Source of the DNA: Eledone cirrhosa | Taxonomy: Eukaryota | DNA length: 64,000 bases | Assembly: GCA_964016885.1 (NCBI GenBank) | Contig: OZ024758.1 | Span: 8,804,001-8,868,000 of the forward strand | Direction: 5' to 3' | Part shown: one piece after another, positions 2,816 through 63,059 of the stretch | Layout of the letters: each line of letters starts with the position of its first letter | Numbering within the stretch: the stretch's first letter is position 1 | Notes under the pieces: model-generated | The model's input: the letters and a program-made list of their open reading frames with translations, nothing else | The model's database searches: none | Told to the model about the DNA's origin: nothing | Program-made: the position numbers and the translations under genes

Positions 2816-3425
2816 GTAGGTATTTTCAACAGCTAGAAATGGCGGACTGGAAATGACAACATATCAATAAGTCTCACTTCACTTTGACAAACGATGTGAC
2901 TGTAGTATTCGGTTCGCCATTTTGTACTTTCTTAAATAACTAACCTGATATCAGATATTGGCGATAACGTCGACAGCTGATATGAAGTTAGATTCCATTT
3001 TTTGTGTTTGAAATGAAAATTTTTTTTAAAATTACTCATAGTATACTATTCGTAGTAGTGGTGGTGGTGGTATACACACACACACACACACACAAATATA
3101 TATATAAATATATATATATATATATATATATATATATATATATATATATATATATATATATATATATATATATATATATAAGAAGAAAAAACAATGGACT
3201 TTCTTTTATGTTTTTGTTTTTATTGAGTATCAGCCTGTTAAGCGCGTTTCGCATATGATTGGCTCAATGTCACATGTTGAAGCTATGAACACACGCGCAC
3301 ACACTCATACACACACACACACACACACACACACACACACACACACACACACACACACACACACACACACACTTTTTCCAATTCCAACCCGCCCGTCTCC
3401 TCAATCTATCTTATTTCTCATTCTT

Positions 3426-3461
3426 TCTTCTGATGAAGGACTAGCGTCCGAAACGTTAAGA
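3426..3461 (+). ncRNA. Minimal type I hammerhead ribozyme motif (Penelope-like pLTR type)
   Basis: TCTT-CTGATGA-A-GGAC-tagc-GTCC-GAAA-CG-TT-AAGA: full core, 4-bp stem II, palindromic stem III remnant, stem I TCTT/AAGA. Confidence 0.75.
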
Positions 3462-3641
3462 CCCTCTTCCGGCTATATCAAGCGTTAACCTAATATATAC
3501 CTTCCATATACTGCACCGATTGTGTTAGGTATTTAAGGACAGATTTCTATTTATAGAAGAAAAAAAACAGATATATAATAGCAGATAATAACTTAATTAT
3601 CTAGAAACGCTATCGGCATAAAAATAAATGATCTTTTTTAT

Positions 3642-3824
3642 AATTGTTTCTACTTTAGGCACAAGGCCAGCAATTACCCAGTGCATTACTGGTACTTTAT
3701 TTTATCGACCCCGTAAGGATGAAAGGCAAAGTCAACCTCGGTGGGATTTGAACTCAGATCGTAAAGGGACGTAACTATGCTGGAAAGCATGGCGTCCGAC
3801 CCTCTACCGATACTGCCAATCCAC
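3642..3824 (-). mobile_element. tRNA-derived Meta-domain SINE (short family)
   Basis: A box TGGCAGTATCGG, B box GAGTTCAAATCC, core gcctttcatccttacggggtcgataaaataaagtaccag; many near-identical copies in the window. Confidence 0.9.
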
Positions 3825-3828
3825 AATG

Positions 3829-58103: not shown

Positions 58104-58979
58104 ATGTTTGCAGTGTCTATAACCAATAACAGGGTAGAGGAAATTCTTCTGAATAGACAACTTCTCTAGTGCTGAGGGAGCCAACCTCTCAACTACCCCC
58201 CCCCCCCCCCAAATTTCACCCTACCATCACAAAATAAAGATATCAAATAATATAATTATAAATATCTTCTTGAGTCTCTTTTTTCCCCCTTTCGAAGGTG
58301 AAGCAATCATTTTGCTTTTTCTAATGGCTAGAATATATGTGGCTCACCACACATGCATATAGATATATGTCTGAATAACAGCTGGAAAACTTTTAATTTT
58401 GATAGATCATGGCTGAACTGGGAACTAAACTACAACTCAGGTTTCTCCTCATCCCAAATGGATAAATAAATCTTTTGCCTTTTACTAAACTACAACAACA
58501 GCAACAATTTCTCTAATGGTGATGTTGCAATAACCTTTCCATGATCATATTTCTAACGAAATACTCTCTATTTAAATTGATATGTCAGGTCAGGCTTCTG
58601 CCTGCTACTAGTACGATGTAACCCAGTACAACCTACTTTATGGTCAAGTGGTAAGCAACTATATCGGCTCCCACACCAGATCCTGATCTGGTGTGGACGG
58701 TAAGTGGAACCCCAGCAGCACAAAAAAACAAGAACTGTAAAAAGGAAGGATGGATGAACTCCTTAGAGCAAACAACCATCCACCCCAACTAGGGGTTAAA
58801 TAACCTCACCAACTTGCAATTGGTTAAGTGTGGTCAGTACAGCTGATATGACCAAAACAAAACAGAAAGCGGTGGGGGGTCAATCAGGGAGAAGTCCTTG
58901 GATTGGATTAAATTAAAATTAATTCATGAAGAATTAATGAAGAATTTTGAAAGATTTAAAGGTACATATGTCTGTGGCA

Positions 58980-61267
58980 GCAGCAGTAGTGGTGGTTATG
59001 GTGGTGGTGGTGGTGGTTGTAGTGATGGTGGTTAGATCAATGATGGAGGTGGTGGTGGTGGTGGTTGTAGTGATGGTGGTTAGATCAATGATGGAGGTGG
59101 TGGTGGTGGTGATGGTGGTTATGGTGATGGTTGCAGTGGGGGTGGTTATGGTGGCAGTGGTACAGCTGCTGCTGGTAGTGATGATGGTTAGGTCTGGTGG
59201 TGGTGGTGGTCAGGTCGATAGTTATGGTAATAATGAGCACAGAAAATGGACATTAGCACAGCTTCAACTGACCATCAGCGACTACTGATGACAACAATGA
59301 CAGTGGCGATGACTAGCGATGACAGTGGCGATGACAGTGGTGATGACAATGGCGATGACAGTGGTGATGACGGACATGATGTCATTAGAGACATTCACTT
59401 AAACAGACAAATTCCTATCACTCCCACTGTGGGGCTGGGGAGAAACTTCCAGGAGGCTTCATTGTAATCAATATTCTCAGCAGATTTCACCACCACCACT
59501 ACCACTATCACTACCATAACCACTACTACCATCACAACCACAACCGTTACCACTGTCATCACCACCACAACTACCACTACCACCACCACCATCACAACTA
59601 TCACCATCACCAGCACCACCACAACCACCACCACAACTATCACCACCACAACCATCACCATCACCATCATCACAACCATAACCAACACAACCACCACCAT
59701 AACCAACACAACCACCACCATCACCACCACAACTATCACCATCACCAGCACCACCACAAACATCACCTCCATTGCCACCACCACCATCACCACAACCACC
59801 ATCACCATCATCACAACCACCACCACCACCACCACCATCACCATAACCACCACCATCGCCACCATCACAAACCACCACCATCACCACAACCACCATCACC
59901 ATCATCACAACAACCACCACCATCATCATCACAACCACCACCATCATCACTACCAGCACCAACACAACCACCACCACCATCACCACAACCACAACCAGCA
60001 CCACAACAACAACCACCATCACCATCACCATCACTAACAAATATTCTAACTCCAATAAGTCAAAAGCAGGTCATAGCGTGATCAGTTCTATTTCCCAAGG
60101 AGCCTGTTAAACTGGCATTTGGTTTCAGTGTGGAATGAACCAATTGTTTAGCCTCTCCAGACATTGACAGGGTCAACCCCCCCCCCACACACACACACAC
60201 AACAATCACAACTCCTACCACATTAATACTATTACTATCAGCACCTTACCAGTGTGACTCCTACATACCACTGTTACAAATAACACTACCACCACCACCA
60301 CCACTAACATCACTATCACTATCACTATCACTATCACCACCACCACTATCACCAACACCACCACCACCATCACCACCACTAACATCACTATCACCAACAC
60401 CACCATCACTATCACCACCATCACTATCACCAACACTAACAACACTATCACCACCACCACCACTATCACCACCACCACCATGACTATCACTACCACCACC
60501 ATCACTATCACCAACACTAACAACACTATCATCACCACCACCCCCACCCCCACCACCATCACTATCATCACCCCTACCACCATCACCACCACCATTTGCC
60601 AACATTTCACTACTCTTCCATGCTGCTTCACCACCACCATCACCACAACAACAATAACCACTATCACTATCCCCAACACCACCACCACCTCTGCCAACAC
60701 TTCACTACCCTAATCGTCCATACTGCCCCACCACCACCCCCACAAGGCTCAAGTGACAGACAATACATCTTCTGCACCATACCCTCACCCCTTCCCTCAC
60801 ACTGCCATCAGTACAGCTAAACTGTTCACTGATCCTACCTCACACCATTGTTCCTTTCATCCCATCACCACCTCCACACCACCACCACTAACACCACCAC
60901 CACCATCACTACCATCACCACCACCACCACCATCACTACCATCACCACCACCACCACCACCACACCATCATCAGCACCACCACTACCATCACCACCAACA
61001 CCTCCACAACACAACTACCACCACCACTAACATCACCAACACCACCACCACACCACCACACCACCACCAACACCAACACCACCACAACACCACTACCACC
61101 AGCACCACCACCACCACCAACAACACCACCACCACTACCATCACCACCACCACCACTACCATCACCACAACACCACCACCACCACCACCACCACCACCAC
61201 CACCACCACACCACCACCAACAACACCACACCACCACCACACCACCACCACCACACCACCACCACCA
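58980..61267. repeat. (GTG)n then long (CAC/CAT)n low-complexity tracts
   Basis: Direct reading. Confidence 0.9.
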
Positions 61268-62319
61268 GTTGGGGGAGCAGCTGACATGAAGCTGCCATTT
61301 CAGATACAAAAGGTCCACCATTGACAACACCCTACATATCAACATACATTTATATATGGGAACTGTTGTGTGTGATGTCATTACTCCTGGGGCAGCCTCT
61401 TTGTGGTAGTGTATATACATAGAGAGAGACATACACGTATATATATGTGTGTGTATATATATATACAGAGAGAGAGAGAGAGACATACACGTATATATAT
61501 GTGTATATATATATATATACAGAGAGAGAGAGACATACACGTATATATGTGTGTGTATATATATATACAGAGACATACATGTATATATATGTGTATATAT
61601 ATATATACATATAGAGAGAGAGACATACACATATATATGTGTATATATATATACAGAGAGAGAGAGACATACACGTATATATATGTGTATATATATATAT
61701 ACATACACAGAGAGAGACATACACGTATATATATGTGTATATATATATAGAGAGAGAGACATACACGTATATATATATATATATATATATATGGGTGTAT
61801 GTGTGTAAACACACACATGCACACATCCATGCTAGCTAGGAAAAAATATATGTATATAATTATATATACAGAGAGGGGGGGGGGGGTAGAATAAGGGTAG
61901 CAGAGAAGATAAGGTTTAAGAAAATGGCAGAAGATAGTATATAGAAAGAGAGAATGACAAAAAGGAAATGGTAGTGTGTGTGTGTGTGGGGGGTTTGAAG
62001 ATGTTTCCAACTAAACCAGATGCAGATATGCTGCAACAATGACTGAGTGCAGTGACAGCAGCATGCTGCAGCAGATGGCCAACAGCGAGGAAATTAGCTG
62101 TGTATGGGTGCATACAACCAGCTACCAGTTGCACCCAAACTGAAGCAATCAATAACAAGCTGTTCATTACAGTCCACGTAATTTTACACAGCTGGGGACA
62201 GCAGCCAGGCAAATATCTATATCTCCCTATTGTCAACTGAAAGACTAACAGAACCAGTTGTATATCTTATATATGTATATATATATATATATGAATGTGT
62301 GTGTGTGTATATATATATA

Positions 62320-62383
62320 CAGGGTGTCTCAAAAATGTATACATATATTTATTAGAATGCTGTTAAAGTTTGGGGACACCCTG
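62320..62383. mobile_element. 64-bp Tc1/mariner-type mini-MITE
   Basis: TA-cagggtgtctcaaa…tttggggacaccctg-TA. Confidence 0.8.
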
Positions 62384-63059
62384 TATATAGATCATCATCG
62401 TTTTTACATCTGCTTTCCCATACACACTATTCTGGCATACACCTTCATATATTTTATACAATATAGTATATTTACCTCTATGATTACATATTGAGGGCTC
62501 TTTCTTCGGTAATTACAACCATAAATTCAGACAATATGTAGGGAGGACACAGAGGAACCCAAGTATAATTACAGATCATGTTATCAACTGGTTATTGTTA
62601 TCAAAATTAAAGCATCTACAATTGTTTATATGTTTAATGTTACCAAACATTTATAGTTATTGAACTGCTTTAGCCCAAAAGTGATCACAATAAGCAGCTT
62701 CTACTGTATATTGTTTCAATGGTGTATATGTAGCTGTTGCTTAACTACAAATCATCTTTACAAAGAAAGTATAACGAACCTGTTAATACAGGTAGAATAC
62801 ATGTATAGTATATATTAGTTTTAAGTACTTTACAACTCATGTTTTATGCCCAAAGGTAATGCTCAGGTGGAAATAGCTGATAGAAAGAATTCTGGTACAC
62901 TTGAATGATATAGCACTATAAGCACGCGTGTGTGTGTGTGTGTGTTATGCATATATATATATCTTTAACGATCGACGTTCGTCAAATCGGACCGAGGGAA
63001 CAATGTTTCCGTTGGTCTTTCCAATTGCTAATACTATCTATCGGTCGCAACTCCAGGTA

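What the first reader, a model, noticed from the sequence alone, without database searches (positions are those of the whole stretch)
3240..63000. Dispersed hammerhead-bearing, microsatellite-associated fold-back elements
Seen: about ten hammerhead-like cores with unrelated stem II sequences (3426+, ~3245-, ~9801+, 14770-/14860+, 16574+, 25427+, 26197-, 31191-, 42870-, 51129-, ~62965+). Most lie in short unique inserts next to (TA)n or (CA)n, and several are in long inverted repeats. No Penelope RT or GIY-YIG ORF was recognised. Established: minimal type I hammerheads with palindromic stem III (ACGU, ACCGGU, ACGCGU) mark the pseudo-LTRs of Penelope-like elements, which often leave inverted 5' ends; non-coding retrozymes also exist in animals. 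Inference: many different non-autonomous ribozyme retro-elements target these microsatellites, at about one per 6 kb, and create much of the local dsRNA/cruciform potential.
Basis: partly seen in the sequence, partly recalled or inferred. Interest (0 to 1): 0.75.

Follow-up and report, generated by a model that had tools for sequence, protein, structure and literature searches.

The report
Penelope stumps and one scrambled hammerhead
Most of these RNA motifs are short end pieces of a known kind of jumping gene (Penelope-like) that sit in TA and CA repeats all over this genome, but one belongs to a protein-less repeat whose hammerhead parts come in a scrambled order and is predicted, not shown, to cut itself.

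Summary
Partly confirmed. Nine of the eleven loci are members of nine separate repeat families; 51129- is single-copy and 62965+ is a SINE. Only 3430+ is an intact canonical hammerhead in the window. Most others are truncated, decayed or variant copies.

Six of the nine families run upstream into Penelope-like RT/GIY-YIG genes in longer copies: three Neptune/Nematis-type, three Hydra-type. The window copies are 5'-truncated ends, with the known inverted arms and 'tails'. Density (9 in 64 kb) is close to a random sample (28 in 290 kb).

Three things go beyond this. (1) Site 9801+ lies in a ~515-nt non-coding head-to-tail unit with hammerhead blocks in S-G-C order and a split stem II, supported by covariation. 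This scan reported such motifs before on other DNA, and that lead changed my reading. (2) A Hydra-clade family carries A at the usually invariant U4 in 17,655 exact cores, against 181 with other bases. (3) None of 60 position-ordered copies starts at the predicted cut, and eight of eight copy-end sites coincide with short TA patches. No cleavage or expression is shown.

The parts
3175..3290 (-). Family I end fragment (older family; long stem II hammerhead). The window copy keeps only the GAAA half and ends in (TA)n.
   Evidence: 228 candidates, 40 scored; family cores; no ORF link found
3372..3527 (+). Family A pLTR fragment (Neptune/Nematis type) with intact minimal type I hammerhead, core 3430-3457. 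Its 5' end abuts (CA)n; this copy lacks the last ~20 nt of the family end.
   Evidence: 2,327 exact 35-nt cores; RT, linker zinc finger and GIY-YIG upstream in L020, L027, L153
9514..9862 (+). Family H, 5'-truncated copy of a ~515-nt non-coding head-to-tail unit
   Evidence: 667 exact 32-nt matches
9728..9819 (+). Scrambled hammerhead of family H: predicted cut after 9757, GAAA 9774-9777, CUGAUGA 9801-9807; stems I and III, an extra helix, and stem II split over an upstream strand
14705..15009 (.). Family D fold-back (Neptune/Nematis type): left arm 14705-14822 (-) with U3-A8 core at 14796-14790; right arm 14824-15009 (+) with mutated core and ~60-nt tail; both outer ends in (TA)n
   Evidence: 4,239-bp unit with decayed RT and GIY-YIG in L154
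16485..16747 (.). Family E fold-back (Hydra type); short arm (-), long arm (+) with tail; 5' core missing in this copy
   Evidence: endonuclease region upstream on the same strand in 9 of 9 other loci
25405..25515 (.). Family F fold-back (Hydra type); this copy starts downstream of the family hammerhead
   Evidence: Hydra-like RT/EN upstream in 2 of 25 loci
26092..26297 (-). Family B pLTR fragment with minimal hammerhead (core 26224-26218, C3 changed to U), ending in (TA)n
   Evidence: decayed RT and GIY-YIG upstream in one locus, L156
31106..31253 (-). Family G, old decayed hammerhead-bearing repeat
   Evidence: 61 candidates, 69-80% identity
42742..42931 (.). Family C fold-back (Hydra clade): main arm 42742-42896 (-) truncated inside the core, inverted arm 42894-42931 (+); both ends in (TA)n
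   Evidence: 3,249-bp unit with an uninterrupted 705-aa frame in L184

Best explanation
These loci are short 3' ends of at least nine repeat families, six of them linked to Penelope-like RT/endonuclease genes, and they were likely made when the element's enzyme nicked a TA or CA repeat and copied only the end of an uncut or re-joined RNA. Inferred steps: the GIY-YIG domain nicks the microsatellite. Reverse transcription starts at one or two fixed internal sites of the RNA, 50-140 nt downstream of the hammerhead core, probably helped by 2-8 nt of pairing between the nicked TA strand and a TA patch in the RNA. Copying usually stops early. When both DNA ends are primed, the two cDNAs join into a fold-back with one short end and one tailed end. 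The hammerhead is carried along because it lies next to the start sites. Family H is a non-coding passenger with the same end pattern, likely copied in trans, and carries a hammerhead in scrambled order.
For: Multi-copy families for 9 of 11 loci. ORF links: A, B (38, one locus), C (45), D (31, 55), E (101, 9 of 9 loci), F (109, 2 of 25). Fixed 3' ends, variable 5' ends. 3' end followed by purine-pyrimidine repeat in 23 of 30 A and 27 of 30 C copies taken in position order, against 3.2% of 53,323 random positions. All 30 position-ordered H copies end at one of two sites. Among the first 100 C cores, 22 neighbour pairs lie within 6 kb: 16 with 3' ends outwards, 1 inwards, 5 same-strand. 0 of 30 A and 0 of 30 C copies begin within 3 nt of the predicted cut. 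8 of 8 end sites with known continuation match (TA)n over 2-8 nt; capped sum 31 against 13.4 at random, p about 1.5e-5. Literature: PMC4209133 describes dispersed and opposite-strand minimal hammerheads from truncated PLEs; PMC11167929 shows two internal starts, cutting and extension of both strands, and uncut RNA as substrate; PMC8557442 gives (TA)n targeting and an octopus Hydra family.
Against: No RNA, cleavage or enzyme data. G and I have no ORF link. B rests on one locus. The 705-aa C protein hits no Pfam family at E<=0.1 and RVT_1 for A is below cut-off; clade calls rest on motifs compared by eye. Neptune-type A rarely folds back (0 of 30 and 1 of 30), so two-ended priming is not general. 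The TA-pairing test has only eight non-independent sites, long-end patches may be captured target DNA, and the one element studied in vitro started at a site without homology (PMC11167929). In one search two A rows are one place and two C pairs are arms of single insertions. Minimum-energy folds recovered a hammerhead-like shape for one C copy and partly for E, not for A, D, F or H.
Confidence: 0.88

Rival explanations
1. The loci are mainly non-autonomous retrozyme-like elements that spread through self-cut, circular RNAs.
For: Family H and its sister H2 are non-coding and form head-to-tail units. Copies read through the cut site, which a re-ligated circle would also give. Metazoan retrozymes are tied to PLEs in 10.64898/2026.07.22.740005 (part 1 of 5 read).
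Against: Six of nine families continue into RT/GIY-YIG genes; C and D show 3.25-kb and 4.24-kb units between two hammerheads. No window locus is a tandem array.
Confidence: 0.08
2. The hammerheads in these families are relics that no longer cut; the elements spread without them.
For: Cores depart from consensus in large families: U4A in C, one extra A in F (16 of 25 loci). A similar insertion had low activity in PMC3088659. Hammerhead mutants did not affect insertion in vitro (PMC11167929). No copy starts at the cut.
Against: Stems are kept around the cores. U3-A8 in D is a compensatory pair known from PLEs (PMC4209133). The H fold covaries with H2 and recurs with unrelated stems. This rival concerns function only and can coexist with the best explanation.
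Confidence: 0.3
3. Copy ends are set by a conserved RNA hairpin next to the start site, not by pairing with the TA target.
For: Earlier notes of this scan propose such hairpins in Hydra-type elements; the anole element starts in a stem-loop without target homology (PMC11167929).
Against: Not tested here. TA patches coincide with 8 of 8 end sites, including Neptune-type families. The two ideas are compatible.
Confidence: 0.4
4. The motifs are chance matches in AT-rich DNA and the fold-backs come from replication slippage or assembly error at microsatellites.
For: Motif counts in the window alone are near chance for strict descriptors; 51129- is single-copy.
Against: Hundreds to tens of thousands of exact cores with 0 in reversed-pattern controls; a 16:1 orientation bias; family-specific short and long ends.
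Confidence: 0.02

Closest known systems
Hydra clade of EN+ Penelope-like elements, including Hydra-1_Obim (Craig et al. 2021, PMC8557442; passages, section 11, supplement parts 2 and 24 and supplement search hits read)
   Same: Family C has the clade's protein motifs, (TA)n targets, a type I hammerhead with U.U at the base of stem II, and inverted 5'-truncated copies with tails. E and F look alike in partial sequence.
   Different: C is a different family from Hydra-1_Obim by eye, is 3.25 kb long, and has A at core position 4; all Hydra cores in the paper's table have U.
Neptune/Nematis-type EN+ PLEs with minimal hammerheads (Cervera and de la Pena 2014, PMC4209133; parts 1-2 of 4 read)
   Same: A, B and D: minimal hammerhead, palindromic stem III, extra base after A9 in A and B, U3-A8 variant in D, most copies dispersed and truncated, some on opposite strands.
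   Different: Nothing essential. Neptune versus Nematis was not resolved.
Type-SGC hammerhead ribozymes (Eckert et al. 2023, PMC10085705; passages and section 13 read)
   Same: Block order cut site, GAAA, CUGAUGA; intact core; stems I and III; short linker from stem I to the GAAA block.
   Different: In H the two stem II strands do not pair with each other; each can pair with an upstream strand. The host is an animal retroelement, not a metatranscriptome contig. Cleavage is untested.
Naiad elements (PMC8557442) and non-autonomous PLE derivatives / metazoan retrozymes (10.64898/2026.07.22.740005, part 1 of 5; PMC7229834, listing only)
   Same: The 3' end of Naiad_Ovul in the supplement shows the same block order as H by eye. 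H is short, non-coding and head-to-tail.
   Different: No Naiad ORF was linked to H here; retrozymes are defined by type I hammerheads, which H lacks.

Membership tests
EN+ Penelope-like elements | One ORF with RT and C-terminal GIY-YIG | tested here: met
   A, B, C, D, E, F in longer copies; uninterrupted only in C (L184); not found for G, H, I
EN+ Penelope-like elements | Partial tandems forming pseudo-LTRs | tested here: met
   C 3,249 bp, D 4,239 bp, A in L228/L232/L235 and H
EN+ Penelope-like elements | Inverted 5'-truncated copy and a tail at one end (two fixed 3' ends) | tested here: met
   C, E, H, D, F; A shows one end and few inversions
EN+ Penelope-like elements | RT phylogeny within the PLE clade | not tested
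   No reference proteins on hand for a tree
Hydra clade (family C) | RWK-like and DKT motifs, CxCx5C linker, CxxC and CxH near the end, no CCHH | tested here: met
   Read in the L184 protein against section 11 and the supplement alignment; RWR instead of RWK
Hydra clade (family C) | Canonical hammerhead core | tested here: not met
   Stems present, but A at position 4 in 17,655 exact cores against 181 others
Hydra clade (family C) | Insertion into (TA)n | tested here: met
   27 of 30 position-ordered copies
Neptune/Nematis type (A, D) | CX2-5CxxC linker and CCHH-type GIY-YIG | tested here: met
   A; D partly decayed; Pfam GIY-YIG E 0.0017 and 1.1e-6
Minimal type I hammerhead | CUGANGA and GAAA cores, stem II, palindromic stem III | tested here: met
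   A: 28 of 30 loci. B: 12 of 19 other loci by eye. E: 6 of 8 other loci shown. D: U3-A8 form in 18 of 20 rows
Minimal type I hammerhead | Self-cleavage (as dimer or protein-assisted) | not testable with these tools
   Needs an assay
Type-SGC hammerhead (family H) | Block order S-G-C with intact core and stems I and III | tested here: met
   Descriptor hit at 9801; 0.2 expected per 354 kb of shuffled DNA; 95-98% of cells paired
Type-SGC hammerhead (family H) | Stem II formed directly between the C block and the G block | tested here: not met
   The strands pair with an upstream strand instead (helices 1 and 2)
Type-SGC hammerhead (family H) | Site-specific cleavage | not testable with these tools
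   Needs an assay
Metazoan non-LTR retrozyme (family H) | Non-coding tandem unit | tested here: met
   ~515-nt unit, partial tandems; no PLE protein hit within the unit
Metazoan non-LTR retrozyme (family H) | Type I hammerhead in each unit | tested here: not met
   Scrambled order instead
Metazoan non-LTR retrozyme (family H) | Circular RNA accumulates | not testable with these tools
   Needs RNA data
Naiad clade (family H) | N-terminal GIY-YIG, CxC linker, C-terminal RT | tested here: inconclusive
   H has no ORF; only the RNA fold resembles the Naiad_Ovul end by eye

The most novel reading that the evidence does not exclude
An animal genome carries, in thousands of copies of protein-less Naiad-type passengers, an active hammerhead in S-G-C order whose stem II is replaced by two helices on a bridging strand; and its very abundant Hydra-clade element runs on a U4A core, so natural hammerhead cores and wiring are wider than current descriptors allow.
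Probability: 0.5. Interest if true: 0.72.

Novelty: new variant of a known kind. Interest (0 to 1): 0.5.

Why it matters
The bulk is a known phenomenon and mainly matters for annotation: about one such locus per 10 kb (28 in 290 kb) would give on the order of 300,000 in this genome. Two parts make open questions testable. Family C offers an uninterrupted 705-aa Hydra-clade protein with its RNA, which allows a direct test of how microsatellite-targeting Penelope elements choose start sites, form fold-backs, and whether the ribozyme is needed. Family H offers a scrambled hammerhead; if it cuts, it extends a permutation described from metatranscriptomes to animal retroelements and would explain the 'half cores' of Naiads.

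Tried and rejected
Rfam scan: swamped by miRNA models on microsatellite hairpins; no hammerhead among the 150 of 357 rows shown. Inverted-repeat finder: swamped by (TA)n. Type I descriptor missed B, F, G, H and I families and merged two Hydra-like families. My first reading of 9801+ as a half core was dropped. 51129- rejected as single-copy, though that search can miss common words. 62965+ rejected as a SINE end. Template cut at the ribozyme: rejected for A and C, 0 of 60. Sequencing runs for family C: no RNA holder listed; no reads were laid. Minimum-energy folding gave little support. The S-G-C descriptor found nothing in the 290-kb random sample although it holds H copies. The automatic core counts for B and E failed on faulty patterns; I counted by eye. 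The first library was contaminated with other repeats and was cleaned; a few short hits there are unverified. Lunse et al. 2017 on PLE hammerhead variants could not be read and may already list U4A. Searches 'hammerhead + U4A' and core spellings found no such report; 'hammerhead + non-circular permutation + retrotransposon' listed three papers, none on animal elements by title or abstract start. Supplements of the bioRxiv preprint were not seen.
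Full report
Setting. The window is G000:C19:8804001-8868000 in a 3.0-Gb animal genome, rich in microsatellites. That the host is octopus-like is my inference from the repeats. The window holds no Penelope ORF.

Observation. I therefore searched each site in the genome. Nine of eleven loci belong to families, with 1669 (A, 3430+), 1090 (B, 26197-), 384 (C, 42870-), 1603 (D, 14770-/14860+), 2555 (E, 16574+), 1482 (F, 25427+; the query also held a second repeat), 61 (G, 31191-), 2134 (H, 9801+) and 228 (I, 3245-) candidates, 40 scored each. 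51129- has one candidate. 62965+ is the end of a minus-strand SINE whose tRNA-like head I recognise from recalled promoter boxes. In the window only A is an intact canonical hammerhead. B has C3U, the left arm of D has the U3-A8 form, C, E and I are cut off inside the ribozyme, F starts behind it and G is decayed.

Autonomy. Longer copies of A carry RT, a linker zinc finger and GIY-YIG. B has a decayed similar gene in one locus. D forms a 4,239-bp unit between two hammerheads with a decayed gene of the same type. C forms 3.25-kb tandems, and L184 holds an uninterrupted 705-aa frame with the Hydra-clade motifs of PMC8557442; Pfam does not recognise it. E is preceded by a Hydra-like endonuclease region in 9 of 9 other loci, F in 2 of 25. 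G and I were not linked. So most window inserts are 5'-truncated ends of coding elements. PMC4209133 describes this pattern, including opposite-strand pairs and U3-A8, and the supplement of PMC8557442 lists an octopus Hydra family with (TA)n targets. PMC13282606 (passages) reports Penelope-like expansions in an octopus without mention of ribozymes.

Density and targets. A cleaned library finds 9 loci in the window and 28 in 29 random 10-kb stretches, 9 of them on both strands. The library was built from the window's families, so the window is not clearly enriched. In position-ordered samples the 3' end is followed by a purine-pyrimidine repeat in 23 of 30 A and 27 of 30 C copies (24 of 30 in a second A sample), against 3.2% background.

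Mechanism. Ends are sharp: C, D, E and H each have two, A has one. Among the first 100 C cores, 16 of 22 close pairs point outwards and 1 inwards; 11 of 30 C copies have an adjacent inverted arm, but only 0-1 of 30 A copies do. No copy of 30 A and 30 C begins at the predicted cut, in line with uncut RNA as substrate in PMC11167929, though a re-ligated circle would look the same. All eight end sites with known continuation match (TA)n over 2-8 nt (p about 1.5e-5 against random positions), and full-length A carries its own TA run at the start site. Short pairing with the nicked target is my inference; the sample is small, long-end patches may be captured target, and earlier notes propose hairpin signals instead (not tested).

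Core variants. Family C has A at position 4 in 17,655 exact 31-nt cores; C, G or T there occur 181 times in all, spread over the three bases in the 100 rows listed, as later mutation would give. Its stems are kept, and U.U at the base of stem II is common in Hydra hammerheads. Whether it cuts is unknown. I found no report of U4A but could not read Lunse et al. 2017. D has the U3-A8 core in 18 of 20 rows (400 exact matches). F has one extra A in 16 of 25 loci, like a low-activity variant in PMC3088659.

Family H. It is a ~515-nt non-coding unit in partial head-to-tail tandems with inverted arms and two ends about 38 nt apart. I first read its CUGAUGA as a half core. Earlier notes of this scan pointed to scrambled hammerheads, and the window copy fits: cut-site block, then GAAA, then CUGAUGA. 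A sister family H2 (2417 candidates) aligns without gaps (16 H and 20 of 25 H2 copies). For 25 pairs in five helices, 95.9% of cells pair and 9 pairs change on both sides, with 0 of 500 shuffles as high. Caveats: I derived the structure from these sequences, most changes are the single H/H2 split, and stems I and III change only in single rows. An order-aware descriptor hits 9801, expects 0.2 hits per 354 kb of shuffled DNA, and also finds unrelated motifs with different stems in L142 and L147. The 3' end of Naiad_Ovul shows the same order by eye. Unlike type SGC of PMC10085705, the two stem II strands pair with an upstream strand, not with each other.

Verdict. A real, mostly known phenomenon: Penelope-like element ends in microsatellites, already noted by this scan elsewhere in the genome. 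The variant parts, the scrambled H ribozyme and the U4A Hydra family, are untested biochemically. Interest 0.5; new variant of a known kind.

Noticed in passing
window 62960-63179 (-): Young tRNA-like SINE that ends in (TA)n; 336 candidates, 98-100% identity over the query. Its driver is unknown.
   Followed up: partly
window 15074-15193 (+/-): Near-perfect hairpin with a (TA)n centre; the arm sequence recurs in L038.
   Followed up: partly
window 9339-9500; L140, L146, L242: Fragment of another abundant (TA)n-flanked family that ends in a long hairpin; it sits directly before the H copy.
   Followed up: partly
   Followed up: partly
flanks of fetched loci, e.g. L202:8549, L003:2589, L070:1860, L210:2964, L176:3051: At least six further type I hammerhead families, two more with a U3-A8 core.
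   Followed up: partly
L142:2493 (+), L147:144 (-), L282:1767, L283:1221: Further S-G-C-order motifs; those in L142 and L147 have stems unrelated to family H.
   Followed up: no
family A loci L304-L333: 5' ends cluster about 75-110 nt upstream of the core in most of 30 copies; the second sample is broader. A strong splice-acceptor-like site lies about 180 nt upstream of the core.
   Followed up: no
L236: Internally deleted 149-nt form of the H unit repeated in tandem.
   Followed up: no
window 13144-13926 (+): 260-aa open frame rich in S, P and T that looks like the last exon of a host gene; no convincing Pfam hit.
   Followed up: partly
window 4537-5323, 8845-9228, 25527-25597: LINE-like fragments; zf-RVT at E 5.5e-5 for 4931-5320.
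   Followed up: partly
window 48369-48426: Interstitial (TTAGGG)n tract of about ten units.
   Followed up: no
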